DNA of 55,653 nucleotides from positions 62,001-117,653 of the forward strand of contig CAUYUJ010000144.1 of the NCBI GenBank assembly GCA_963575745.1, given 5' to 3'. Position 1 is the stretch's first letter. Each line of letters begins with the position of its first letter. The DNA is from Prorocentrum cordatum. Its lineage: Eukaryota. This document shows, piece by piece, positions 20,701-55,653 of this stretch. Both the position numbers and the translations under genes were made by a program. The notes under the pieces were generated by a model. The model was not told where the DNA came from and did not search any database. It saw nothing but the letters and a program-made list of their open reading frames with translations.

Positions 20701-23282
20701 AGCCCTGGCCGAGGACGCGCTCGATGTCCACGGGCGCCAGGCGGTCCGCGCCCATGCCCGTCTTCGCCTTCATGCGGCGCGCTGCAGCGCGCACGTCGGC
20801 TCCCGCGATAGGAGAGCGCGGCGCATCTCGCGCAGCCTCGGACGCCATCGCAGCCGCTTCCTGCAGCCGGCTGGTAACCTTAGGTTGGCGCATCCAGATC
20901 GCCTGCCAATGGGCTCCCTTGGCGCCCACGATGCCCCGAGGATTCGACAGCGCGCTGAGCGCCGTGGTAACCTCCTGCTTGGGCAAGGGCCCCTCCTCCA
21001 AGGGGCGGTAGACTGCGCCCCTGGAGGCCTGATCCGTGAGCCAGCCCTTGAACTCCTGCAAGGACTCACTCACCGCGCGACGATGCGCCCGCCGTTCAAC
21101 CCGCTCGCTGTGCTGGAAGATGCCCTCCAGGACACGGGACGTGCACCCCTCGACGTTGAGCAGAAGGCTCACCCACTCGTCTAACGTGGGCTCCACACCA
21201 AGGCGAAGGACGCGCCCCGCGTGGTCAGGTCGGTCCTCTGCCAGACGCCTGCAAGCACCGTGCAGCCGAACCAACTGCCGCTGGCCGTTGCCCCGACCCA
21301 AGTGACGAACGATCTGCTGGAGAACAGACGAAACTCTCTGCAACCACGAAGTGATGCGATCACGAAGAGGGGTTTCACGATATCGCCCTGAATGCTTGAC
21401 TGTCTCGATTGCGAAACGGCGCCCTTCAGCTCGGCTGGGACCTCCAGGCTGCGAAGACTGGTGGTGCTCGTGAACGGCCTGCTCTAAGGTGCGAATCCAC
21501 TGGCCGCGCGAAGAACTTGCGGAGCCCGCGCGCCGCAGGTTGAGCCGACCAGCTACTGACGAGGCAAGGCACACAGGCGAGGGCCCCACAACCATGCCTT
21601 GAGCTTGTACACGGCGCTGCTCCCACATATCACTGGGGACGCACAGCGAAGGTTCAACCTCGTCAGACGGGACTTCCGAACTTAAAAGGGGGGCTTCGTG
21701 CGAGGTGCATCCTTTGGCTGGGTAGGGGTTCTGCACGCTGGCACTATTAGGAGACTCGAAACTGACTGTATCGACTGAATCAGACTCGACTGAAGCAGAG
21801 ATAGGCTGATCAGAGAGAGGCTGGCAAGCAACATGGCAACCATGCGATGGGCCAACGCGGACGATCGATGGCGCATCACTGTGACAGGCACCCCCTTCAC
21901 AAGTGAAGCTGGCCTCGCCGTCGTTCTGCCCGCGAACTGATGTCCAACCTCGGCCGCCAGGGCGAAACTTGCCAGACATGCAAGCGAAATTCACGCCCTC
22001 ACCGCCGTTTTGCCCGCGAGCGGAGGGTGAGCCTCGTCCGCTGGTGGGAGACAGGCTGGCAGTATTGCAATCACGAGGCGCGGCGACGCGGATGACCGAT
22101 GACGCTTCACTTTTGCTGGCGCTCTCTGCGCTCGCGAAGTTCGCTGGATCAGCCTGCGGATCCCCCTCCTCATCGGGCCCGGCTTCAGCCTCGAGATCCA
22201 CAAACTGAGCAGACTGCAACTCATGTGACGCCTGATCTGTACTGCGAGGCTCGGCCTGTTGACTAGCTGAAGGAACCCCTGCGTGATCTCCAAACAATTG
22301 CACAATTTTCTCATTGCGGGCTACTCGTGAAACCTCCTGCTGCAGACGGCGGCTGTGCTTGGCAACAGAAGACTTAGAGCCTGCAGCGGGCAGTGTGCGC
22401 GGGCGAGCAACCTGCGGCGAGCGACTAGCGTGGACGAGTCGCCTGGTCTGGAGCTGCTGCCCACTGCGGCGTAGATTGAGTGATGGACCGATGCGCGGCC
22501 TCCAAGGAACGTCCAACTGCGGCTGGAGCGAGAGAATGTACGGCAAGGCGGCCTCGCTGACGATGGCGTAGTCCATCATGCTCCCCAGCTTACTGGCATC
22601 GCACGTGTACGAGACCCCCATCAGGGGTGATGATGCGGCCGGCGACCTGGTCCAGGAAGCCCGACCGCTGGATGACGTGAGGTTCCACGTTCCAGTCGCC
22701 CAAGCAAATCCACAGTAGACGAAGCCCACGTAGAAACCCTCCGAGACGATGGAACCTGGCTAGGTTGCGGCCCGAGAGGCCGACGGATGTGAACCCGTAG
22801 CGCACGCAGAGGACCACAGAGTAGCCGTGGAAGTGGAGGATCGAAGCGATGAAACCATCCAGCGCCTGAGAGCCTAGCGCCTTCAAGGCCGAAGACGACG
22901 CGGCCTCACGCAAGGATGCTGCCTGCAAATGGCCACGCGCGAGCACCCACTCGCCCCCCTCGTTGGCCTTGTCGTCAGTAGCACAAGATTGATGTCGACC
23001 GCTGGGTCGAGCTCCATTCGGTATGAGCTTAAGCCCTGCAGCACGAGCACGAGCATCCCACTTACGAAGCTGTGACTCAGGAGCGTGAGTCTCAACGATG
23101 CCCATGTACTCATGCGTCTTGCTGACGAGCTCAAGGTGGCCCCAGGCACGATCGCCCAGGGCCGTAACGTTGCTGAAAAAGACGCGGCTGATCCCCTGCG
23201 CGTCCTCGGACTCGGGCAGAACTGGCGCCTGGCAGCACGGCGCCTCCGCCCCAGCGGGGCGCTCGGCCCCAGGCGCTGGCCG
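17723..23282 (-). pseudogene. LINE-A ORF2: APE endonuclease, reverse transcriptase, RNase H and C-terminal Cys/His domain; multiple frameshifts
   Basis: APE: FFSNVT, GIVETH, LGDWNVEP, MDYAIVS. RT: GMGAD, LPKKADGDRVIGL, LDTEGFYD, SIIQG, IWVDD (WVDD at 20110-20121), FLGID. RNase H: FFGDASG (Asp 18860-18862), LPGHQQSVPRGEL, HSHQ...GNQAADVLA. C-terminus: PSHTM...WFCACCG...LGLGKGC. Confidence 0.9.
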
Positions 23283-23788
23283 TCAGGCCTGCACCTTGGC
23301 ACACTTGGCTGCGCCCTTGCCCGCAGCCTTCTTCTGGTTGTCGGCCTTCGCCGCCGCCTCGAACTTGGACGCCGACAGGCGGGCTGCCTCCTCAGCGATA
23401 GCCTGCTCCTGCTCAGGGCTGCTGGCCTGCTGCTCCTCCTTGACCTCCACGCCGCTGCTGGTGCCGCTGGAACCGTCGCCGCCTCCACTGGCAGCCGGCT
23501 CCTCGGGGCCCCCCGCCGCGTCCTCGGGCGCTGGAGTCGCAGGCGTGCCGTCCGCACCCCTGCGCTTCTTGGCCAAGCGCGTGGTGATGTCGCGCTTGAC
23601 CTGCGCGGCCTTGTCCAGCCACGACTTCACCTCCACGTTCTTGGCCACGAACATAGCCTGCATCTTCTCGAGTTCGTCCTTGATCGCCTACAGCTGCTCC
23701 TTCTCCGATGCCTCGACCTCGATCGTGTCGAGGTCGGAGAACAAACCAGTGTCCCACGACACCTCGAACAGCGGCTTGGTCTCGGGCT
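23283..23788 (-). pseudogene. LINE-A ORF1 C-terminal remnant (charged, helical)
   Basis: QPETKPLFEVSWDTGLFSDLDTIEVEASEKEQL*AIKDELEKMQAMF...KCAKVQA*. It lies directly upstream of the APE domain, has one internal TAG and is cut off by the microsatellite. The ORF1 call is positional. Confidence 0.65.
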
Positions 23789-23790
23789 GA

Positions 23791-24301
23791 AGAGGAGGCG
23801 GAGGAGGAGGAGGAGGAGGAGGAGGAGGAGGAGGAGGAGAGGAGGAGGCGGGGGAGGAGGAGGAGGAGGAGGAGGAGGGAGGAGAGGGAGGAGGAGGAGT
23901 AGGAGGAGGAGAATAATAGGAGGGAGGAGGAGGAAGGAGAAGGAGGAGGAGGAGGAGGAGGGGAGGGGGAGGGAGGAGCGAGGAGGAGGAGGAGGATGAG
24001 GTGGAGGAGGAGGAGGAGGCGGAGTAGGAGCGGGAGGAGGATGAGAAGAGGAGGATGGAGGAGGAGGAGGAGGAGGAGGGGCGGGGGGGAGGATGGAGGA
24101 AAGAGAAGGATGTGGAGGAGGAGGAGGAGGAGGAGGAGGAGGCAGGAGGAGGAGAAGGAGGGAGGCGGAGGCGGGGGAGGAGGAGGAGGAGGAGGCCGAG
24201 GAGGAGGAGGAGGAAGAGAAGGAGGGAGGAGGAGGAGGAGGAGGAGGAGGAGGGAGGAGGAGGAGGAGGAGGAGGGAGGAGGAGGGAGGAGGAGGAGGAG
24301 G
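23791..24301 (+). repeat. (GGA)n microsatellite at the 5' end of LINE-A
   Basis: Direct reading. Confidence 0.95.
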
Positions 24302-24759
24302 ACCCCCCGCCGCTCCCTTAGGCTTTGCGCTTTTGCGCCCGCCACGCTCCCGCCCTGCTGCTGCCCCTTTGGCGGCCGCCCTGCAGGCTGCCTGGCTCCG
24401 CCGCGCGCTCCGCCTTTGACCCCTGCTTAGCCGCCGCCCTCTTGGGCCCCCCCCCCCCCCCCCCCCCGGCGACCCCACCCCCTCGCGCCGTCCTCCGTGC
24501 CACGCCGGCACGGCCCCCGTGGCCTGCCGCTGCTGCCCCCCGCGCCGCCGCTGCACCCCCCCCCCCCGCCCCACCCCCGCCAGCGGCCGCTGCCCGTCTT
24601 GCCACGCACTGCACCCTGTGAGGCCTGGCGCCTGGGGACTTCCTTTTTATTGATCAGCGCGCGCGTCGGTCGGCGGGCATGGACATCATCCGTCTTGGAG
24701 CGGGCTCCAGCCCGCAAACGATCAAACGTGTGTCAGTATGTGTTGTTTTAGTGGTTGTG

Positions 24760-25855: not shown

Positions 25856-26991
25856 ATATAATACCAACGCTCGTGCCTGCCACGCAGCTTCCCGGACGGA
25901 CGCGGGCGCGCCCGCGAGCGGGCAGGGCCTTCAGGTTGGTCGACAGCGGCCCCGAGCGCCCGAGAGCTCTCCTGGGCGCCTGGACGCGCCAGCGCGCGCG
26001 CGCGGCCAAGGAAGTGCCCGAGGGGGTCCGTTGTGACCTGACCCCCGCCCAGCCCTCCCTTCCTGCCGCCCTTCCTCCCTCCTAGTAGACACCCTCATGA
26101 TCTCATCTCGCCTCACCCACCCTCGAAGAAGATGATGAGACGAGGATGTGGAAGATAACTGGGAACAAGACAAGGAGAAAGAGAAGGAAGAGGTGTAGGA
26201 GGAGGAGGAGGAGGAGGAGGAGGAGGAGGAGGAGGAGGAGGAGGAGGAGAGGCAGCGGAGGAAACAGGGGATGAGGAAGAAGAGAAAGAGGAGGAGGAAG
26301 CGAAAGAGGAGGAGGAGGAGGAAGAGGTGGAGGAGGAGGACGAGGATGAGGAGGAACAGGAGAGGAGGGGGAGGGGAAGAAGGAGAAATACGAGGAGAAG
26401 AAGGAGAGGGATCTCTCCGCTGGCCAGCACCCAGACACCTTTTCCGCGCCATCCGCCGACGATCGTCCTGGCCAGTGCTTCGAGCCGGGTCCGGTCAAGA
26501 CGTCGAGGACGGACCCTCTCAGCGGCAACGAAAGCAAACACAGAGACACACCTCACTGCTCCCCACCTCCCCTTCCTCCTCCTCCACCTCCTCCTCCTCG
26601 TCCTCCTCCTCCTTCTCGTCCTGTTTCTGATGCTCCTGCTACTGGTTCTTCTGCTGCTGCTCCTTCCTTCCGACAGCAGGGATCAGAAGCGCAGAGACAT
26701 GCAGACGCCAGATGGACTTGTTTGAGGCCTGGCCCGTGGGATGGCATGGATGTGCGAGGGCGCAGGGGCTGGCTCACGGTAAGAATGCTAGTGGCCATGC
26801 AACTCCTGAGCCCATCGCCATCTCTCTCTCTCTGCCCCCTTTTGTTCCCCCTCCCTCCTTCTTCGCCGATGTGTGCTTATCTTTACGCGTTTCGTCCTGC
26901 TACTTGACGGGCTGGTTCGCCTTGACCGCCTCGAAGTTGACCTATTCGACTGAGCCATCTCGAGAAGGATTTTGTCATCCTCGACTTACCC

Positions 26992-28270: not shown

Positions 28271-30804
28271 AGATCCCCCTCGCTACGGTGACGCTGGGAT
28301 GAAAGCAACGCCCTATCTGACACCAACTGGCTTGTCGCTTGCTCTCGGTTCTGGTCGCGCCTAATCTCATTTCCCCGCCTGCGCGCGGACGGCCTCTCCG
28401 AACTCCTCCTCGTCCACCTCCTCGTCCTCCTCCTCCTCCTTCCTCACCTCCTCCTCCTCCTCTCCTCCTCCTCCTCCTCCTCCTCCTCCTCCTCCTTTTC
28501 CTCCTCATCCACCTCCTCCCCCGTATCCTTCATTTCCTGCTCCTCATTCTCCTCCCCCTTCTCCTCTACCTCCTACTTCTCGCAGCCGTCGTCCTCCTGG
28601 TCGTCCTCTTCATCCTCCCTGACTCCCTCCCTCCCCCTCGGAGGTTCAAAAATGGGGTCCTCGGGGGTGGGGTCCTAAGGACGAGGTACCTCAAGCAATG
28701 TCCATCCAACAATGGACCCCCTCCTGTCCTCATGATCCCATCCCTCAGGACCCCATCTTTGACACACCCGCCCTCCCTCCCTCCCTCTCCTCACCTCTGC
28801 CTGCCGCCCTCGGCACCGGCGGCAGGGCCGCCCTGAGCGTGGCCGTCAAGCTCCGCCTCTCCGCGGGGGCAGGGGGCACGGGGGAGACGGTGAGACAGCG
28901 AAGGGCAGGGGGGGCGGGGGGGAGCGGCCAGGTATCGGAGGAGAGGGGCGGGGAGAGGCCCCTCCTCCTCCTCCTCCTTCTCCTCCTCCTTCTCGTCCTC
29001 CTGCTCCTCCTCCTCCTCCTCCTCCTCCTCCTGCTTCTCCTCCCCCTCCTCCTCCTCCTCCTCCTCCTCCTCCTCCTCCTCCTCCTCCTGCTAGTCCTCC
29101 TCCTCCTCCTCCTCCTCCTCCTCCTCCTCCTCCTGCTCGTCCTCTTCCTCCTCCTCCTCGGAGGAGGAGGAGGACGACGACGAGGGGAGGGCGCACCACT
29201 TCGGCCCGAGCCGCACGTGCTCAAGGCGGACCCGCCTCACGAAGCGGGAAGCGCCGCATGCTAAACAGGGGTGGTGGGAGGACCTCCTCCCTGGGAGGAT
29301 TAGGGGAGGGGAGGGAAGGGAGGGAGGGGAGGAACTGACCGAGAGGGGCAGAAGGAAAAGGGGGAGGATGAGGGGAGGGGAGGGATGATGCGAGAAAGAT
29401 TCGGAGGAACATGTGGTGGAAAGAAGGAAAGGCGAGAGGACCGGAGGAGAGGGAGGGACAGAGGGACAGGTGATGGGAAGGGAGGGAGAGGATAAGACAA
29501 GAAGGGGCGAGAAGGATTGCTTTCCATTATTTCGTCCCCTGGGGCACCACTCAGATTGCGTGATGGCAGCTGGAGGTAAGACTTCAATATATCCTTGGAG
29601 CCTGACGCAAACTTTGGGCGAACATCACTGCAACCACCGACTCCCAAGTCGACTGGTCACTTCAATGCGAACCCCACGATTTGTTCTTTAGACATGGCGC
29701 GACGCAACATTCTGGGCATGAAATATTGAAGCTGTGTTCACAGCGGCTCAAGGGCGAAAGGGATGGAGAAGAAAGATGAGTATGAGGAGGGCGAGGGGTA
29801 GATCAACCAATGCGTAACGCAGCAAGTGCACGAACACGATTGGTTATCTGTTCCACCATCAACACACACACATATCAACCGAAAGCCTCGCCATACGAAA
29901 GCAAAAGACAACTACGACATTCAGCGGGAAATTATATAATGAATAAAGCAGCAGCGCTGACACGGAGCCAGAGGGAGCGCATGAACAACAACGGAAACAA
30001 CAATACACCCAGGTAGTGGTTGCCGAAGGCGCGATGAAGGAAACCCAACTCGCCTGAACAAACGCTCGCGCGGTAACTTGCTGTCCACGCTAGCTGCACG
30101 TCGATCTTGGGTCCATCCGCACGCAGTCAGGCCTGCAACTGGATCAGCAGCTGAGCACGAGCGATCCGCCTAACCAATGGCACTGCCGCCTGCGCCTCAG
30201 CAGGTGCTGGCACCTTTGCTGGTTGCCCTGCCTCTGCTGCTAGAACGACCTATGTTGCTATGACGCCTGCCTCTCATGACAGCCCCTGGGGTCGTGGCAC
30301 ACATCTTACGCTGATAGCCACCGGTCGCAGAAGACACAATACCCGTGTGAGTCCACTTTTCTTCGAGACCCAACTTGCTAGAAACTGCACCTAATTAGGT
30401 CCAAGAGCGTTGACCCCTCTTGGCTTCGAAAAAACTGCCGATCTTCGTCCGAAGGGAGCACATCACAGCTGTCAAGGTGATGCCGATACTCAAGAAACTT
30501 GCAAAGGTGATTGGCCATAGCGCGTCCAGACAAGGCAACGCCCTGGATTCCAGGATGGACGCAGAAATCTCCATACCATCCAAGACCAAGCGCCACATGG
30601 AAAAGACATCCTCGCGAGTTCAGTGGAGTGCTTGTCCCGAGGCCATCCTTCCAATGGTTGATGCCATTGATCATGGGCCTGTACTCTGCCAAATCCGACC
30701 TTCAAAACAATCGCGACAGAACGCCGAACAACTCGTCCTGTGCAAAACGCCCGTACCCCTTCGGGTTTGTTTGGAATTCGCGCTCGGCAAAAGACGCGGT
30801 ACTA

Positions 30805-35241: not shown

Positions 35242-35533
35242 GCAGCATCATCATCATCGTCGTCATCGTCATCATCATCGTCATCGTCATCATCACCATG
35301 ATCACCACCACCACCAGCATCATCATCAGCAGCATCAGCATCATCACGATCACCACCACCACCACAACCACCCTCCTCCTCCTCCTCCTCCTCCTCCTCC
35401 TCCTCCTCCTCCTCCTCCTCCTCCTCCTCCTCCTCCTCCTCCTCCTCCTCCTCCTCCTCCTCCTCCTCCTCCTCCTCCTCCTCCTCCTCCTCCTCCTCCT
35501 CCTCCTCCTCCTCCTCCTCCTCCTCCTCCTCCT
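34510..35533 (+). repeat. Compound (CCT)n-(CAT)n-(CAC)n-(CCT)n microsatellite
   Basis: Direct reading. Confidence 0.95.
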
Positions 35534-35844
35534 CTTTTGTTCCCCAGAGGAAAGGCCCCGCGTCTGGGATGCTCTGGCAAATCTGCCCCTGAGTCTTTGC
35601 AGCGCCGCGCGCGCTCTACACGGAAAATGGTCAGGACGGGAGGGCGGGCCAGACAGCGGGCTGGACAGCGGGGGGGGGGCCAAAGCGAACCCTCGCGCGT
35701 CCTGATACTTCCCCCCGCCCTGCCCCTCTCACACCTCCACTCCCGCTTCCTACCCTCCCCTCCTGCGCCCTCCCCCTCTTTCTGCCTCCTTCCCGCCTCG
35801 TCATCCTTCCTCGGTCCGTGTTCCCTTTCTTGAGCACAGCTTAG

Positions 35845-46685: not shown

Positions 46686-46879
46686 GGGGAACAAAAATGA
46701 TATAAACATAAAAACTCTGAGGTCCGCGCGGATTTCTTGGATCGGCGCTGGACCCCCCTCCCTGGCGCGCGGAGCGCACCAGGGGCGGCGCCGGAGGCGC
46801 CGCCAGGGGGTCCCAGCGCCGATCCGAGGAATCCGCGCGGACCTCGGAGTTTTTACGTTTATGTCAGTGTCTGTTCCCC
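46686..46879. mobile_element. 194-bp MITE with ~70-bp terminal inverted repeats, TA-flanked
   Basis: TA-GGGGAACA...aaacataaaaactctgaggtccgcgcggatttcttggatcggcgctgg pairs with ccagcgccgatccgaggaatccgcgcggacctcggagtttttacgttt...TGTTCCCC-TA. Confidence 0.85.
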
Positions 46880-49639: not shown

Positions 49640-52600
49640 TCAGCCTGCATCAGCAAGGGCAGCAGAGAAAAGAGGCGGGGCCCGCCTGCGCAGCTGGCGG
49701 ATGCGAGCCACGCCGAAGTTGAGAAGCCGAGCCCGCTCGGCGAGCGGGCTCGTCCGAGGCCAGTGTCTTAATTCATGGTATGCTGTGCAACAGATGTCAT
49801 GATACAAGGCGACAGAGAGGAGCTGCACATCACTGAGAGGTAAAAGACTGAAGACCGACGCACGCGCACCCGCTGTGTGAGTACGGAAGTCGGGGGAATA
49901 TTAGGAAGCATTGACAGAATATGGGCCGTGCACGCACAAACTAGAGTGTGGAGCATACTATCTGCACTGGCTTGGTGGCAGAATCGACACGGTTCGGTGG
50001 CACCTCGAAATCGGCGGGCGGTGCACAGGCACTACATAAAGTGCGAACGACACTGCTGGACACACAAGTGGGAGCAATACGAGAGACACGCTTGAGAGCG
50101 ACAAACAAGAGGTCAATCTGGTCGGGAGTGGGAACCACGCCGAATTTGCACAGACGATCACGAAGGACAGAGCGGAGGGGGGGAGAAGAAAGGGCTCTCA
50201 GGGCGGACTCAGATCGACTCTGGAATCTGGAAGCTCCGAAGACAGGCATGGTCGGGATCTGGGACAGAGTGTTGAAGTTGGAGATGAGATGGAAGATGGA
50301 GGACTCCTGATGCACAGTATTTCGCTGCCAACACAAAATAGAGTCATCATCGTCGTTCTCGATGACTGATTTGGCGTGGTAGAACGCCGCGGACATGACT
50401 GCAGTGCGATACATGGCTGCTCGGGCAGCTGGCGCGAGAGCGCGGGCCTGCATCGGGAAGCCCCACTCCTTGAGATTCTGGAGGATCCCCTGGGACAGGC
50501 TATTGTTCGGGGCGTTCGTCAGACTCTGCTGGGCTTTTCTGACGGCCGAGAACGCGGCTTTCGGGGGCGGGTAAAACTGCACCACATGGGAGGGGACCGA
50601 GAAGGCGGGAAGGTTGAAGCACACGATGGACTTGCAAAGGCCGAGGCCGAGACTTTTGACATCCTGCGCCCTCGAAATGCACTTGCTGGGTGGGGCGAGC
50701 CATGAGAGATTCCACCCATCGTTCCCAAGGAATATCCCTAAGTACTTCCCAAGATGCTCGAAATTGAGGTTGTCTGGGCGAACTCCTATCTGGCGCATGA
50801 GCTGCTGGCATTCGGCGACGCTGAGGCTGGCGAGGGTCACGAGAATCGTCTTGGGCAGATGAATATGCAGACCAGCAGCAGCGCCAGCGAGATGCCAGCA
50901 CGGAACCAGAGCTTTAAAGGTACTGAAGATGTCAGCGGCAGCGACGCCGACGTCGTCTGCAAATGCAGTCAACCAAGACACGCCACTAGGGATCCTCGTA
51001 AGCATGTGGCGTAAAATCGGATCGAAGGCGATGCAAAAGATAGTCCCTGACAGGGGGGGCCTTGTTTGATCCCACGAGAAGCCAGGAAGGAGTGCCCATG
51101 GAGCCCGCAGAAATTGATTTCGACGGTGACGTCCGTGTACAGGGCCTGAATACACCTCAGGATGTTTGACGGGAGCCCCATGCAGGTTAGGGCCCAGAAG
51201 ATCATATCGTGCAAGAGGCTGGGGAAAGCGGACCGCACGTCATAGTATAGCACACCAGCATGCGCGTGCCCAGACTTAGCATGCCACATAACTGCCCGAC
51301 TCTCGAGGTCGATGATGTTTTCGTTCATGTATCTCCCAGGAATAAACCCACGCTGGTTGACAAGAACAGTTTGGGAGGCAATCTGGGAAAGAGGTCTGTT
51401 GATGGCAAGGGAGATGAGCTTGTTGTCAGAGTTGGAGAGGGTAATAGGTCTAGTTGTTTCAGGCTTACGTATGATCTGGGAGGAGGTGTCGTCTGGGTCG
51501 CTGCCCTTGGCAAGGAAAACGGCCATTGCCCGATTAAACTTCGGCGGAAGGTAGCCCTGCTCGAGCAGGACGGAGTAGGGAGCGCACAAGGAGTCGGCAA
51601 CGGCTGCACCCCCTTTGCACAGCAGGCATAGGGTATGCCGTCGGGCCCAGGGCGCGAATCCCCGGTACGGGAAATCAACTCCCCAAATTCCAGACGCTCA
51701 AGCTTCCAGAAGATGTTGGGGGGGGGCAGGTCTGGACAAACTCACGCAGCTGTTGTCGGTCCTCGACAGATCCAGGAATACCTTGATGAACCTTGCCCCA
51801 GTGGTCGGCAAGATGCATCGCTACCTGCTCAGGCTCGGTAATGGCCTTGCCAGTCGGGTCGGACACGCCAGTAAGAGAAATCCTGCGGTGCTTCCGCCCC
51901 CATGCTGACTGATATCTGTAGAGTTTTATCTTCGCTTCTTGCTTGCGCTGGTCGGATATGGGCTGCTGCTCAATATCAATCATCTGCTTCTGGATGTGCT
52001 CATTCTTGAGATCAGTCAGGTGAGAGTGAAACGCGCGCATATCAATCAAAAGGCCAGACAGCGGGCAGAGAAACTTGGCGAGCAGCGGGTGCGCGCGCAG
52101 GGCCTTGCGAACAAGCCACAGAAGACCTCTCAGAGTGCCACGCAGGGCTGCGAGAGTCCAGGCAATCTTTTCCTCGACGGATTTGTTGGCCTGCTCGATG
52201 CTATGCTGGAGGGCGTTCTTACTCGCCTGAACAAGGATATCCTTCATCTGAGCGTGGTGCATGGCGGGGTCAATGTCGAGCGGGCCAACAGCGTCGAGCA
52301 GTTCCTGGACACAGATCGGGAAGTGCGAGTGCTTGGGGACCCATGCAGGAACTCTGAAGCCCATCTTGCCACCAGGGGATAATGCGAGGCACGCCGGAGC
52401 GTGATCCGAGAGCTGTCCTGCTTTCGAGATCGGAACGAGGGTGAGAGACTTGGGGTGGAGCTCGAGGAGGATAGCGCTGAATATGTTTGAGTATATTCTG
52501 TCGATGCGGCTCATGCTCACTTTACACAAGTCCCCGAAGTGCAGGGAGAAGAAAGCAGCAGCATCATTGCTGGAATAATTGGCGACACCACTGACGTGAA

Positions 52601-53347
52601 ACGACCCTTCGCCTTGACTGGGGAAATGGAAGTCCCCAAGCACGAAACTTGCAACAGCTTGGGCGGGTAGGAGAGTACGACGGAGAATCATGAGCTGACG
52701 CTTCTGTTCACTGAGAGGGAGAGCAGGATCGAGATGAATGTTAGAGGTCTGAAGAGTGCCTCTGGGACCAGCGAGAGTGAGAGAATGGATGCGACCCTGG
52801 ACTAATTCGGCGTATCGGCAGTACTTGAAATCGTCGCGGAGCGACGGATGGAACAAAAAAAAAAAAGTACGCATCCAGCAGCCCTGACTTCGAAGAAAGA
52901 CCCAATACCCCATGAGTCGTACACTTCGGAGCAGACTCTCTGTAGGTCGAGAAAAGAGCCCCTGGCCTCCTGGATGCGCACGACATGGTATTTCTGGATA
53001 TATGTTACTAAGCGTGACATTTTTCTTCTGACGGTATCCAGACGTGTGGTGAGCCCCCCGAAGAGCGACCGAGCGCTCCAGGAAACAAAACTGATATGTG
53101 CCTTGACTACGTATGGTGAGTGTGTCCAGAATCTAGGGATAGGGCGGAAAGACTCGGGCGCAGCCGAAGACGGGAACCTCATGGGCCCAGACGGCGCGGA
53201 AGACCAGGACGAGGTGGAGGAAGAGCCCGCAGACGCGGAAGAGGAAGAGCTCGACACGGAGGTGGAAATGCATGGCTGGTATGGAACCCTCATACCAGGC
53301 GCCCCTGACGAAAATGTAGAACCTGATCGGAACGGCGTGGGAGACCC
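49640..53347 (-). pseudogene. LINE-B ORF2: APE endonuclease, reverse transcriptase and Cys/His knuckle; frameshifted
   Basis: APE: VSWSARSL, IQEARG, VLGDFHF, SRIDRIY, LSDHAP. RT: PGPDGIPY, RPITLSNSDNKL, QRGFIPGR, YDVRSAFPSL, GIKQG/PLSG, AFADD (FADD at 50952-50963), KYLGIFLG. C-terminus: CTARRF...CRFCHQASADSMLHTLVC. Confidence 0.92.
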
Positions 53348-54271
53348 CTAGCTGGGACGGGCTGTCGCTATGATGGAGCCCGCCTGCTCAGGCGAGATGT
53401 CGAACTTGGCGGTGCCGTCGGGGGAGTGAACGATCTCGTACTGGCCGTAGTCCCCATCCTTGACTGTGAACAACTCATGATCAACCTCGCTGACGGCGAT
53501 GAAGAGGATACCCCTGAAGCCGTTGACACCGAGTTCGAAGCGCTGCTCATTCCATGTGCCTGCTTGTCGCAGATGGGTATTGACTGCCTGCCAGATTTTG
53601 CCCAGGACCTGGTTCTTCTGCCTGACCGTGCTGGGAGCATCCTTCCTGCAGCGGAGGGGGATGCGGGAGCCAGACACGCTGTCTTGCCACAGGATGCCGT
53701 GGGCCCTGCCGTGGTCAACGAACGAGGAGGCATCGAGCGAGCTGCTGAACGTGATAGAGTAGCTCTTGGCGAGGTTGTGGGCTTTGATGCTCACACCAGC
53801 CTGGCGGAGGTGAGAAGGGAGAAGACCGAATAGAGTGCGACCATGCGCCTCCATGATGGTCGCTAGCATGGGTCTCGTGAAGCCGCCAGTCCATACCTTG
53901 CAGGGACCATGCTCATCTCCAATACGCGAATTAACCTGACTCGGTGGTGCCGACAACCTTCGACGCGAAGCAGGCGGACCTGACGAGGAATCCCCAGCTG
54001 AGCTCTGAGTCGATGATGTCTCAATAGCAGCAATGCGGCTCTCGAGATCGGTGCGAAGGGCAGCGAAAGCACCAGCTTCGGACGAAGCACGAATGTTCGC
54101 CTCAAGCACGCCGGTGCGCTTGTTGATGCCTTCCATGGCGGTCTCCTGGGCAGTGAGCGAGACGCGAAGCTCGTGAATGCCAGGGAGCGCTGATTCGATG
54201 CTGGTCGAACGCCCTGTGATCCCCCCGAGCTGCTCGAGGATCTGCGCGATACCCTCTCCAACTTCAGGCAT
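53348..54271 (-). CDS. LINE-B ORF1 (307 aa; predicted coiled coil plus RRM-like/CTD-like region)
   Basis: Open 924-nt frame from the first ATG after the SL (MPEVGEG...ARPS*). Heptad-like N-terminus (LRTDLESRIAAIE), then KVWTGGF and LRCRKDAPSTVRQKNQVL, reminiscent of the L1 ORF1p layout. Confidence 0.75.
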   Translation of the reverse strand: MPEVGEGIAQILEQLGGITGRSTSIESALPGIHELRVSLTAQETAMEGINKRTGVLEANIRASSEAGAFAALRTDLESRIAAIETSSTQSSAGDSSSGPPASRRRLSAPPSQVNSRIGDEHGPCKVWTGGFTRPMLATIMEAHGRTLFGLLPSHLRQAGVSIKAHNLAKSYSITFSSSLDASSFVDHGRAHGILWQDSVSGSRIPLRCRKDAPSTVRQKNQVLGKIWQAVNTHLRQAGTWNEQRFELGVNGFRGILFIAVSEVDHELFTVKDGDYGQYEIVHSPDGTAKFDISPEQAGSIIATARPS

Positions 54272-54400
54272 TGCGGCAAGCTGCGAGGGAGGCCGACGGC
54301 TCGGGCACGAGCGCGCCAGCGGGGAAAGTGTCCGCCTGGATTTGACTCCAGGAAAGCCTCGGAAGAGAGGCAGCCTCACTCGAATGGGGCCTGTCCCCAC

Positions 54401-54422
54401 CTTGAGCCAAAATGGCAACGGA
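54401..54422 (-). other. Dinoflagellate spliced leader (dinoSL) copy at the 5' end of LINE-B
   Basis: Minus strand TCCGTTGCCATTTTGGCTCAAG vs dinoSL DCCGTAGCCATTTTGGCTCAAG, 21/22 identical. Confidence 0.92.
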
Positions 54423-55653
54423 GGAGCAGGAGGAGGAGGAGGAGGAGGAGGAGGAGGAGGAGGAGGAGGAGGAGGAGGAGGAGGAGGGGGAGAGCCAGCA
54501 AGCGAAGAGCAAGTGGAGGCGAGAGGCCCTGCCCATGGGAGGACCTCCGCGTTGCTCTGCTTGCGGGCCCTCTTCTGGGCGGGCGTCTCCTTCTTCTCCT
54601 TGCCTGCCAGCTGCCGCGCCATCCTCGAAAGCAACCGGCTCGAAGCTGCAGCGGTGGGAGGGCTCTCGGGCCAAAATCTCGCCCGCGCCTCTCCACGCGG
54701 GAGGCTGGCGAGCGCGACGCTGGCTGGAAGATGCGGGGGGCGAGGGAGACGGGTCGAAATACCACCTCCATTCTTCCACGCCGTCCTGCGTCCATTCCTC
54801 CACTTCACCTCCTGCGCCTCTTTCCCCCTCACTGCCAAACGCGCGGCCCAGAGAGCGACCTCCAGTTTTAAGAGCGCGAATGCCTGTTTCCAATCCTCTT
54901 GCCAAGACGGCGAGGCAGCGGACAGCGGATCCTGTCCACCAACCACGCCTTCTCCACCTCCTCCTCCTCCTCCTCCTCCTCCTCATCCTCATCCTCCTGC
55001 TTCACCCTTGCAGTGCCCATGTAACCTCCTCGTGGAGAGAGGTTGAAGTATAAAATTGAAAGATTCACTGAGTGTTGAACTAATGGGATAAAAGGGTGGA
55101 GGACATATGGTGTGCCTCCCTTGGTGGGGGTAGGCTTATGGTGCCCACCGTCAGTTGTGGAGGAGCCTATGGTGCCCCTCCGAGCCCACCCCGTCCCATC
55201 CACAGGGACTTCGCACCTCCCCCCAAGGTCCCCCACCATGCCCCTGTGGCACGAAGTGGAGTGTCCCCAGGTCCATTGCTCAACCCCTGAGCTTCAGCCC
55301 TCAACTCTGAGAATTCTGTAAAAAAATCTGGACCCCTAATTCCAAGACGGCCCAAGGGGCCCCCAAGACCGCCCCCAAGAGGCCCCAGGGAGACGCAAAG
55401 GAGGCCCCAAGAGGCCCCCACGACGCCCCGATACTACCCAAACTGGCCCCCAAGAGGCTTCACAACGGCGCCCAAGAGACCCCCGAAAGGCCTCCAACGA
55501 CATCCCTACGAACAACTTGGAGGCTTGTGACCTTACAACACAGGCGCAGTGGCGGGATGGGACGAAGGCTATTGGATAATTGGAAAGCGACCTGATGAGG
55601 TGGCTGGACCACTCGTCTGTGCTAATCCTTATCCTCCTCCTCCTCCTCCTCCT

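What the first reader, a model, noticed from the sequence alone, without database searches (positions are those of the whole stretch)
23225..23288. LINE-A ORF1 and ORF2 are in frame across one UGA-CGG stop followed by a stem-loop: candidate programmed readthrough
Seen: ORF1 ends GCC TGA CGG CCA (TGA at 23285-23283). The same frame stays open into the APE domain (…ISRVFFSNVT…) with no ATG until 23105, after the first APE motif. Six nt after the stop an 8-bp perfect stem begins (GCGCCTGG/CCAGGCGC; 23276-23269 with 23232-23225), enclosing a 6-bp hairpin (CGCCCC-GCT-GGGGCG). Known: UGA-CGG/CUA plus a 3' stem-loop is the readthrough signal type of alphaviruses and several plant viruses. Inference: ORF2 is made as an ORF1-ORF2 fusion by readthrough, which is unusual for LINEs.
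Basis: partly seen in the sequence, partly recalled or inferred. Interest (0 to 1): 0.8.

Follow-up and report, generated by a model that had tools for sequence, protein, structure and literature searches.

The report
In-frame UGA plus hairpin in LINE

Summary
On the minus strand, TGA (23285-23283) separates an ORF1-like tail from an AP-endonuclease (APE) domain in the same frame. There is no in-frame ATG before 23105. A 22-bp hairpin (23276-23225) starts 6 nt after the stop.

The element is a real, 5'-truncated and decayed APE-RT-RNaseH LINE. Its nearest named relatives are Prorocentrum cordatum gene models.

For readthrough:
- The hairpin is the most stable 52-nt window of the whole element.
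- It is far more stable than synonymous recodings of the same peptide (1 of 3000 as stable).
- No other in-frame stop of the copy has such a structure.
- Two related contigs from public runs show no change at the TGA.

Against readthrough:
- The copy carries three other in-frame stops and several frameshifts.
- One of those plain lesions is also TGA-CGG, so the codon context is not evidence.
- A P. cordatum paralogue encodes Trp at the position.
- There is no covariation, no RNA data and no genome to build a family consensus.

My odds: programmed readthrough 0.4; decay of a fused single ORF 0.3; termination-reinitiation 0.2. The case is worth a family-wide alignment and a reporter assay.

The parts
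17525..17681 (-). (TCC)n microsatellite tail at the 3' end of the element. It reads (GGA)n on the plus strand.
   Evidence: Tandem Repeats Finder, period 3, 51 copies. The sequence was read directly.
17682..17722 (-). Short 3' UTR between the ORF2 stop (TGA 17725-17723) and the repeat tail.
   Evidence: Sequence read.
17726..18142 (-). C-terminal Cys-containing region of ORF2.
   Evidence: tblastn with residues 1605-1760 of P0075, E 2e-8.
18331..18889 (-). RNase H-like region, split over two frames.
   Evidence: The RNase H part of P0125 aligns to 18871-18707, E 1.8e-4. P0075 and P0125 carry Pfam RNase_H. Pfam finds nothing in the window's own pieces.
18889..21247 (-). Reverse-transcriptase region. 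It is broken by a frameshift near 20117-20295 and by in-frame TGAs at 19470-19468 and 19056-19054.
   Evidence: tblastn: P0075 residues 611-1341, E 6e-39 and 9e-25; P0094 residues 450-1234. P0075 has RVT_1 at E 2.6e-4, below Pfam's cut-off. Relatives have sense residues at both stops.
21248..22399 (-). Long linker between APE and RT, inside the 881-codon open frame 22759-20117.
22400..23192 (-). AP-endonuclease domain. It starts at ISRVFFSNVT and has a one-base frameshift in a G run near 22620.
   Evidence: P0004 is 65% identical over 181 aa. HMMER gives 306 hits, nearly all of the 150 listed to this part. The model of relative P0006 matches L1-EN and TRAS1-EN. One X1 contig lacks one base at 22620.
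23193..23282 (-). 30-codon Pro/Ala/Gly-rich leader between the stop and the APE domain. It is open in frame and has no ATG.
   Evidence: The P. cordatum model P0130 has RPAPG...QAPVL here.
23225..23276 (-). 52-nt, 87% G+C hairpin of 22 bp at -41.1 kcal/mol, starting 6 nt after the stop.
23277..23282 (-). Six-base spacer CGGCCA. Its first codon, CGG, gives the UGA-CGG context.
23283..23285 (-). The in-frame TGA between the ORF1-like tail and the APE frame.
   Evidence: No difference is listed here in the two contigs that span it. The paralogue P0130 has Trp.
23286..23791 (-). 5'-truncated ORF1-like module: the F.V.WD..LF.DLD motif, a coiled-coil-like stretch, AKKRR and a low-complexity tail. 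It is interrupted by TAG at 23690-23688.
   Evidence: An HMM of the pre-APE parts of 8 P. cordatum models hits it at E 4.6e-15, matching model positions 196-337 of 343. BLASTP to P0095 gives E 2e-21. P0073 is 59% identical.
23792..24302 (-). (CTC)n array abutting the truncated 5' end. It is the same repeat class as the 3' tail.
   Evidence: Tandem Repeats Finder, period 3, 168 copies. Sequence read.

Best explanation
The TGA is the authentic end of the ORF1-like module in this LINE family. ORF2 (APE-RT-RNaseH) has no AUG of its own upstream of its first catalytic motif. It would be made from the same RNA when a fraction of ribosomes decode the UGA instead of terminating. The 22-bp G+C-rich hairpin 6 nt downstream would sit at the ribosome's mRNA entrance and slow termination. 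The product would be an ORF1-ORF2 fusion made in small amounts beside abundant ORF1 protein, as with Gag-Pol of gammaretroviruses.

Shown here: the anatomy, the lack of an ATG, the exceptional stability of the hairpin, and that no change is listed at the TGA in the two other contigs that span it.

Inferred: that the stop was present in an active master element, that the RNA folds this way, and that any readthrough occurs. This particular copy is 5'-truncated and dead whichever reading is right. I put a genuine stop with a downstream translation signal of either kind (readthrough or coupling) at about 0.6.
For: 1. The frame is open on both sides of a single stop, with no in-frame ATG before 23105, which lies past the conserved F-F-S-N-V-T motif. 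The paralogue P0130 also has no Met in this leader.
2. The hairpin is the best of 2002 windows of 52 nt across the element; the next independent one is -30.9 kcal/mol. As stable or more: 10 of 2000 dinucleotide shuffles, 1 of 3000 synonymous recodings, 3 of 1500 GC-matched recodings and 8 of 3000 codon-order shuffles.
3. Downstream of the copy's four other stops examined (three in-frame lesions and the ORF2 terminator), the best 52-nt fold is only -5.8 to -16.3 kcal/mol.
4. Contigs X1 record 6 (23160-23378, 5 differences) and X2 record 11 (23058-23399, 16 differences plus 6 inserted bases) span the stop. No difference is listed at 23283-23285. At 23159, 23203 and 23303 contigs from both runs (X1 records 5 or 6, X2 record 11) agree against the window.
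5. An open-frame boundary just upstream of the APE is normal in the clade. Of 101 relatives whose match reaches the APE N-terminus, 39 start 0-31 aa before it. These include long, apparently intact ORF2s (P0075, P0074, P0040, P0046). P0094 was not among the 101 but starts with Met 43 aa before the motif. The window's TGA lies 31 codons before it.
6. All 11 relatives with an ORF1-like module fused to the APE are eukaryotic gene models of P. cordatum, where introns could bridge a stop. P0095 skips about 42 aa exactly around the stop, the leader and the first APE motif.
7. The signal type is known. VEEV and Colorado tick fever virus use UGA-CGG with a 3' stem-loop (Table 1 passages of PMC13517186).
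Against: 1. The copy is decayed. It has TAG at 23690-23688 in a conserved ORF1 motif, TGA at 19470-19468 and 19056-19054 where relatives have sense residues, and at least five frame changes.
2. One of those plain lesions is also TGA-CGG, so the codon context carries no weight.
3. The P. cordatum gene model P0130 reads A-W-RPAPG where the window reads A-stop-RPAPG. A Trp or Arg codon could therefore be ancestral.
4. There is no covariation. In X2 one change falls on an unpaired base and one breaks a G-U pair.
5. The X2 contigs list no difference at the TAG or at the extra G near 22620. If they share these lesions, the copies descend from one dead copy and the shared TGA says nothing about a master element. 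The difference lists are incomplete: 2 of 5 and 13 of 16 differences are listed for the two junction contigs.
6. Pro/Ala/Gly codons are mutually complementary, so such linkers fold easily. The 76-nt and 201-nt folds are only z -2.2 and -1.1. Three other loci in the window fold about as well.
7. The spacer is 6 nt. The review says spacers of eight or more are typical and that removing one codon hurt MoMLV readthrough.
8. My four searches for this found no LINE reported to use readthrough.
Confidence: 0.4

Rival explanations
1. Decay of a single fused ORF. In this family the ORF1-like module and APE-RT-RNaseH are one continuous reading frame, as the P. cordatum gene models show. The TGA would be a nonsense mutation in the low-complexity linker of a dead copy or of its dead ancestor, for example CGA or TGG to TGA. 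The hairpin would be a by-product of G+C-rich Pro/Ala/Gly codons.
For: - Eleven gene models in nine 90% clusters join an ORF1-like module to the APE without a stop.
- The window's ORF1 tail is homologous to their pre-APE part (E 4.6e-15).
- This architecture directly explains the shared frame and the missing ATG.
- P0130 has Trp at the site.
- The copy has three other in-frame stops, one with the same TGA-CGG context.
- Differences between copies show no third-position excess: 11, 7 and 7 at codon positions 1, 2 and 3, my count.
- The X2 contigs may share the TAG and the extra G.
Against: - The fused form is seen only in eukaryotic gene models. None of the other 90 relatives that reach the APE N-terminus has more than 99 aa upstream. 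About 25 of these had their source looked up, and all came from ENA, Logan, JGI or EukProt.
- Junction-spanning proteins can only be predicted from copies without the stop, so P0130 is a biased witness.
- A random stop would have to land 6 nt upstream of the strongest hairpin of a 6-kb element.
- No change is listed at the TGA in either of the two other contigs that span it.
Confidence: 0.3
2. Genuine ORF1 stop, with ORF2 made by termination-reinitiation or another AUG-independent start rather than by decoding the stop. The hairpin would pause the terminating ribosome, as the downstream structure does in SART1. The shared frame would be a coincidence.
For: - Two LINE precedents appear in the review passages: SART1 couples ORF1 and ORF2 at UAAUG and needs a downstream structure, and mammalian L1 uses an unconventional termination-reinitiation.
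- That L1 ORF2 does not need its AUG is my recollection of Alisch et al. 2006, not seen here.
- Intact relatives have separate, AUG-started ORF2s.
- The distant relative L001 has ORF1 and ORF2 in different frames overlapping by 56 nt.
Against: Three features are unexplained coincidences under this model: the shared frame, the absence of any further stop in the 30-codon leader, and the absence of an ATG. SART1 coupling uses an overlapping AUG, and none is present here.
Confidence: 0.2
3. The stop or its surroundings are an assembly or sequencing artefact, or the organism reads UGA as a sense codon.
For: The frameshift near 22620 is one extra G in a G run that one X1 contig lacks. Some lesions could therefore be errors.
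Against: - No difference is listed at the TGA in contigs from two other runs.
- The 881-codon frame has no TGA at all and encodes Trp as TGG.
- ORF2 itself ends at a TGA.
- TGA replaces a conserved Cys and other sense residues elsewhere in the copy.
Confidence: 0.03

Closest known systems
Type II stop-codon readthrough signals of alphaviruses and coltiviruses (VEEV and Colorado tick fever virus: UGA-CGG plus an extended 3' stem-loop)
   Same: UGA followed by CGG, and a stable stem-loop a short spacer downstream. The product would be an N-terminal protein and a rarer fusion carrying the polymerase (Table 1 passages of PMC13517186).
   Different: The structure starts at +10 (6-nt spacer), against +12 in both viruses. 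It is 52 nt, against 78-126 nt. The carrier is a cellular LINE, not an RNA virus. There is no functional or covariation evidence, and the CGG context also occurs at a plain lesion in the same copy.
Gammaretroviral Gag-Pol readthrough (MoMLV: UAG plus an 8-nt spacer and a pseudoknot)
   Same: The logic is the same: a reverse-transcribing element sets the ratio of structural protein to polymerase by leaky termination, with a structured RNA just 3' of the stop.
   Different: The stop here is UGA, not UAG. The structure is a simple hairpin, not an H-type pseudoknot. The spacer is shorter. A LINE has no LTRs and no protease.
ORF1-to-ORF2 translational coupling in LINEs (SART1 UAAUG with a downstream structure; mammalian L1 termination-reinitiation)
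   Same: A bicistronic LINE RNA in which the ORF1 stop and a nearby structure control ORF2 synthesis (passages of PMC5972666).
   Different: SART1 restarts at an AUG that overlaps the stop. L1 has a 63-nt spacer. Here there is no AUG and the two frames are the same.
APE-RT-RNaseH LINEs represented by unnamed Prorocentrum cordatum gene models (such as CAK0859906.1 and CAK0873948.1) and by marine ENA/Logan contigs (P0075, P0094)
   Same: Colinear over the ORF1 tail, APE, linker, RT, RNase H and C-terminal Cys region. The APE fold resembles L1-EN and TRAS1-EN.
   Different: Intact relatives either start ORF2 at an AUG 6-43 aa before the APE or are modelled as one fused ORF. Only this family shows a single in-frame UGA with no AUG. 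The clade is too far from the Pfam models for the window's own pieces to score. I did not place it in a named LINE clade.

Membership tests
APE-type non-LTR retrotransposon (LINE) | N-terminal AP-endonuclease (EEP fold) domain in ORF2 | tested here: met
   The window's region 23192-22400 is 65% identical to P0004 and 38-41% identical to P0005-P0008. The AlphaFold model of relative P0006 (pLDDT 82.9) matches L1-EN (1vyb, 8sp7) and TRAS1-EN (1wdu) at TM 0.74-0.75, E about 1e-10. P0125 has Pfam Exo_endo_phos at E 5e-4, below the cut-off. The window's own piece scores nothing in Pfam.
APE-type non-LTR retrotransposon (LINE) | Reverse-transcriptase domain downstream of the APE | tested here: met
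   tblastn aligns 21109-18889 to P0075 residues 611-1341 (E 6e-39 and 9e-25). P0075 residues 778-952 hit RVT_1 at E 2.6e-4, 21.2 bits against a cut-off of 29.6. A V-W-V-D-D-A stretch is present; reading it as RT motif C is from memory.
APE-type non-LTR retrotransposon (LINE) | 3' repeat or poly(A) tail, frequent 5' truncation, target-site duplication | tested here: inconclusive
   A (TCC)n tail begins 41 nt after the ORF2 stop. The ORF1 homology begins at profile position 196 of 343, so the copy is 5'-truncated. Target-site duplications were not looked for, because both ends abut the same microsatellite.
Programmed stop-codon readthrough signal, type II | UGA followed by CGG or CUA | tested here: met
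   TGA CGG at 23285-23280. The same hexamer occurs at a decay lesion, 19470-19465, so the feature does not discriminate here.
Programmed stop-codon readthrough signal, type II | Stable RNA structure starting about 8 or more nt after the stop | tested here: inconclusive
   A 22-bp hairpin at -41.1 kcal/mol is exceptional for the element. Its spacer is 6 nt (start at +10), against +12 for VEEV, CTFV and MoMLV. CHIKV at +9 and PSIV at +2 are also listed.
Programmed stop-codon readthrough signal, type II | Stop and structure conserved across independent copies and relatives, with compensatory changes | tested here: inconclusive
   No change is listed at the TGA in 2 of 2 other contigs that span it. 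One paralogue has Trp. Two substitutions fall in the stem region, and neither is compensatory. No genome is held, so no family alignment could be made.
Programmed stop-codon readthrough signal, type II | Measured readthrough or a detected fusion product | not testable with these tools
   No RNA run holds the stretch. No proteomic or ribosome-profiling data are available here.
Single-ORF LINE with a nonsense lesion | Family consensus and intact copies carry a sense codon at the site | tested here: inconclusive
   Fused forms are seen only as P. cordatum gene models (11 of 11 with 173 aa or more upstream). P0130 has Trp. P0095 skips the region. The close copies show no listed change from TGA.

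The most novel reading that the evidence does not exclude
A lineage of dinoflagellate LINEs makes its endonuclease/reverse transcriptase as a Gag-Pol-like ORF1-ORF2 fusion by programmed readthrough of a UGA, stimulated by a hairpin 6 nt downstream. Related families would sit at the two ends of the same scale: fully fused ORFs, or separate AUG-started ORF2s. My four searches for this found no report of stop-codon readthrough as a LINE expression strategy, so this may be the first such case.
Probability: 0.38. Interest if true: 0.75.

Novelty: new variant of a known kind. Interest (0 to 1): 0.5.

Why it matters
How LINEs translate ORF2 from a bicistronic RNA is only partly understood. The mechanisms described in the passages I read are stop-start coupling (SART1) and unconventional reinitiation (L1). 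My four full-text searches found no LINE reported to use readthrough. A readthrough LINE would show that non-LTR elements converged on the retroviral Gag-Pol solution. It would give a natural eukaryotic, non-viral example of a UGA-plus-hairpin recoding signal. It would also offer a handle on translation control in dinoflagellates. If the stop is only decay, the finding is an ordinary dead LINE copy. What remains of use is then a description of a very divergent APE-RT-RNaseH LINE clade that Pfam barely recognises.

Tried and rejected
**Searches for more copies that gave nothing**
- No whole genome is held, so no family consensus could be built.
- No RNA holder is listed for the stretch; only four DNA runs with small shares were found.
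- The window holds no second copy of the element.
- A metagenome scan for the family found nothing. An earlier alignment was too diverse to scan with.
- The viral contig scan found nothing.
- The genome-contig scan gave one locus, L002. It is a spurious 21-50 aa match, not a relative.
- Protein word-searches gave only P0004 for the readthrough product and nothing for the 100-aa junction, at near or longer lengths.

**Family and structure searches that gave nothing**
- Pfam finds no domain in any piece of the window's element.
- A profile search of PDB sequences gave nothing significant.
- The ESM Atlas gave no usable hit for the ORF1 tail.
- The scan's earlier findings hold nothing on this genome, this sequence or LINE readthrough.

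**Ideas considered and dropped**
- L001, the only relative with DNA, is too distant. Its ORF1 is not detectably homologous to the window's (E 0.26), and its two ORFs are in different frames. It does not inform the in-frame question.
- UGA read as Trp in this organism: the 881-codon frame has no TGA and uses TGG for Trp, and ORF2 ends at TGA.
- Selenocysteine was not examined.
- I recalled that Zorro3 of Candida has a single in-frame stop. That is wrong; the review says multiple stop codons.
- Hebe of Adineta has in-frame stops only as lesions in decayed copies.
- UGA-CGG as evidence for recoding: the same hexamer marks a plain lesion at 19470.
Full report
**What is there.** On the minus strand the window reads ...AAG GTG CAG GCC TGA CGG CCA GCG CCT GGG..., with TGA at 23285-23283. 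The same frame is open for 134 codons before the stop (23687-23286). It stays open for 230 codons after it (23282-22593) and runs into ISRVFFSNVTALGDRAW...GIVETH. The first in-frame ATG after the stop is at 23105-23103, past the F-F-S-N-V-T motif. GCGCCTGG (23276-23269) pairs with CCAGGCGC (23232-23225), six bases after the stop. ViennaRNA folds the 52 nt into one 22-bp helix at -41.1 kcal/mol.

**The element.**
- Pfam recognises none of its pieces.
- HMMER against 1.84 billion representatives finds 306 relatives, nearly all of the 150 listed through the APE part.
- tblastn shows the window is colinear with long relatives from APE to C-terminus: P0075 (1889 aa) and P0094 (1729 aa).
- P0075 carries Pfam RNase_H above the cut-off and RVT_1 at E 2.6e-4. 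P0125 carries Exo_endo_phos at E 5e-4.
- An AlphaFold model of relative P0006 (pLDDT 82.9) matches L1 and TRAS1 endonucleases at TM 0.74-0.75.

So this is a real, very divergent APE-RT-RNaseH LINE. It ends in a (TCC)n tail (17681-17525).

Its 5' end is truncated. An HMM built from the pre-APE parts of eight Prorocentrum cordatum gene models hits the window's ORF1 tail at E 4.6e-15, but only from profile position 196 of 343. Upstream of that lies a (CTC)n array. The named relatives are P. cordatum gene models, so the window is probably dinoflagellate. That is an inference.

**The copy is dead.**
- TAG at 23690-23688 interrupts a conserved ORF1 motif where relatives have R, K, Q, M or A.
- TGA at 19470-19468 and 19056-19054 replace sense residues, the second a conserved Cys.
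- The frame changes at least five times.
- The shift near 22620 is one extra G in a G run, judged against P0004. One X1 contig lacks that base.

**Is the TGA private to this copy?** No genome is held, so I laid the contigs of four public runs on 22590-23700 at 80% likeness.
- Two contigs span the stop: X1 record 6 (23160-23378, 5 differences) and X2 record 11 (23058-23399, 16 differences and 6 inserted bases).
- No difference is listed at 23283-23285 in either. At 23159, 23203 and 23303 contigs from both runs (X1 records 5 or 6, X2 record 11) agree against the window.
- The lists are incomplete (2 of 5 and 13 of 16 differences shown), so retention is likely but not proven.
- The insertions in X2 add up to six bases, which keeps the frame between the stop and the APE. 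That happens by chance one time in three.
- The listed differences show no third-position excess (11, 7 and 7 at codon positions 1, 2 and 3, my count). The copies therefore diverge neutrally.
- The X2 contigs also list no change at the TAG or at the extra G. If they share those lesions, the copies descend from one dead copy, and the shared TGA says nothing about an active master element.

**What relatives show.**
- The P. cordatum model P0130 aligns A-W-RPAPG...QAPVL to the window's A-stop-RPAPG...QAPVL. One diverged paralogue therefore has Trp at the site. This witness is biased, because a predicted protein can span the junction only if the stop is gone.
- P0095 is colinear with the ORF1 tail and the APE, but skips about 42 aa around the stop, the leader and the first APE motif. 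That is what an intron laid over a stop would look like. I could not see its DNA.
- Of 101 relatives whose match reaches the APE N-terminus, 42 start inside the domain, 39 start 0-31 aa before it, 9 start 45-99 aa before it, and 11 have 173 aa or more upstream.
- All 11 long-extension relatives are P. cordatum gene models.
- About 25 of the other 90 had their source looked up. All of those came from ENA, Logan, JGI or EukProt.
- The apparently intact P0094 (five contigs of 6.4-6.5 kb carry it at full length, 1729 aa) begins with Met 43 aa before the motif.

An open-frame boundary just upstream of the APE is thus normal in the clade, and the window's TGA sits 31 codons upstream. The fused form rests on gene models alone. 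The one relative with DNA, L001, is distant and has two ORFs in different frames overlapping by 56 nt.

**The hairpin.**
- It is the most stable of 2002 windows of 52 nt along the element. The next independent one is -30.9 kcal/mol.
- As stable or more: 10 of 2000 dinucleotide shuffles, 1 of 3000 synonymous recodings of the same peptide, 3 of 1500 GC-matched recodings and 8 of 3000 codon-order shuffles.
- Downstream of the copy's four other stops examined, the best 52-nt fold is -5.8 to -16.3 kcal/mol.
- Against this: the boundaries were chosen after the fact. The 76-nt and 201-nt folds give only z -2.2 and -1.1. Three other loci in the 55-kb window fold about as well.
- The X2 changes leave the hairpin at -40.2 kcal/mol without any compensatory pair.

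**The context.** UGA-CGG with a 3' stem-loop is the signal of VEEV and Colorado tick fever virus. In both, the structure starts at +12; here it starts at +10 (Table 1 and text passages of PMC13517186). However, the lesion at 19470-19465 is also TGA CGG. The hexamer therefore arises by plain decay in this G+C- and Arg-rich sequence, and I give it no weight.

**Weighing.** Two features point to translation continuing from ORF1 into ORF2: the shared frame, and the lack of any ATG before a conserved catalytic motif. That continuation would be either constitutive (a single ORF, now broken) or by readthrough. The choice between these turns on whether the stop was present in active elements.

For a genuine stop:
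- its position at the usual ORF2 boundary;
- no change listed at it in the other contigs;
- the strongest hairpin of the element lying six bases downstream.

For decay:
- the state of the copy;
- Trp in P0130;
- the fused gene models;
- possibly shared lesions.

My odds are readthrough 0.4, decay of a fused ORF 0.3, termination-reinitiation 0.2, artefact or other the rest. The reinitiation estimate rests on the LINE precedents SART1 and L1 in the passages of PMC5972666.

**Literature.** Of five full-text searches, the four aimed at the question found no LINE reported to use readthrough; the fifth looked for dinoflagellate LINE papers, none of which I opened. The passages I read describe coupling and reinitiation, frameshifting in HeT-A, lesion stops in Hebe and multiple stops in Zorro3. 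If the readthrough reading is right, this is a new variant of a known recoding mechanism in a new class of element.

Noticed in passing
window 17525-17681 and 23792-24302: The element is bracketed by arrays of the same trinucleotide repeat: its (TCC)n 3' tail and a 511-bp (CTC)n array at the truncated 5' end. Similar arrays recur across the window (26173-26385, 28403-28574, 28961-29159 and matches near 35372-35534). This may reflect a microsatellite-tailed LINE that inserts into its own tail repeat.
   Followed up: partly
window 19465-19470 and 19054-19056: A second TGA CGG lies inside ORF2 where relatives have His, Leu or Ala. Another TGA replaces a conserved Cys of a C-x2-C motif. Both are plain decay lesions.
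   Followed up: yes
window about 22620: The APE frameshift is one extra G in a run of G. One contig of run X1 lacks that base, so it is private to this copy or an assembly error.
   Followed up: partly
window 49941-54982, minus strand: A second, unrelated retroelement. The frame 50969-51697 hits Pfam RVT_1 at E 5.6e-9, above the cut-off. Relatives of the first LINE do not match it.
   Followed up: no
L001 1-1464: In this distant relative the +1 frame, which is the ORF2 frame, has no stop across all 487 ORF1 codons. Codon shuffles expect 11.6 stops and synonymous permutations 8.6. None of 2000 of either kind has zero stops. Something keeps the second frame open over the whole of ORF1.
   Followed up: partly
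window 12198-12249, 46754-46809, 29134-29185, minus strand: Three other 52-nt stretches fold as stably (-40 to -43 kcal/mol) as the junction hairpin. One lies in a (CCT)n array. The other two were not examined.
   Followed up: no
relatives P0067, P0068, P0057, P0096, P0078: Several relatives have a hydrophobic, signal-peptide-like stretch just upstream of the first APE motif. It is internal in the fused gene models and N-terminal in ENA frames.
   Followed up: no
proteins P0012 and P0073: Transcript-derived proteins filed under a prasinophyte (Pyramimonas sp. CCMP1952, EukProt) are 82% identical to the window's APE (P0012) and 59% identical to its ORF1 tail (P0073). So either relatives of this family are transcribed somewhere, or the label reflects contamination.
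   Followed up: no
window 23220-23278, run X2 records 12 and 13: Two further contigs match the window only over the hairpin region, ending at 23278 and 23276, a few bases short of the stop. One also skips 23094-23219. These are rearranged copies whose upstream sequence differs from the window's ORF1 tail.
   Followed up: no
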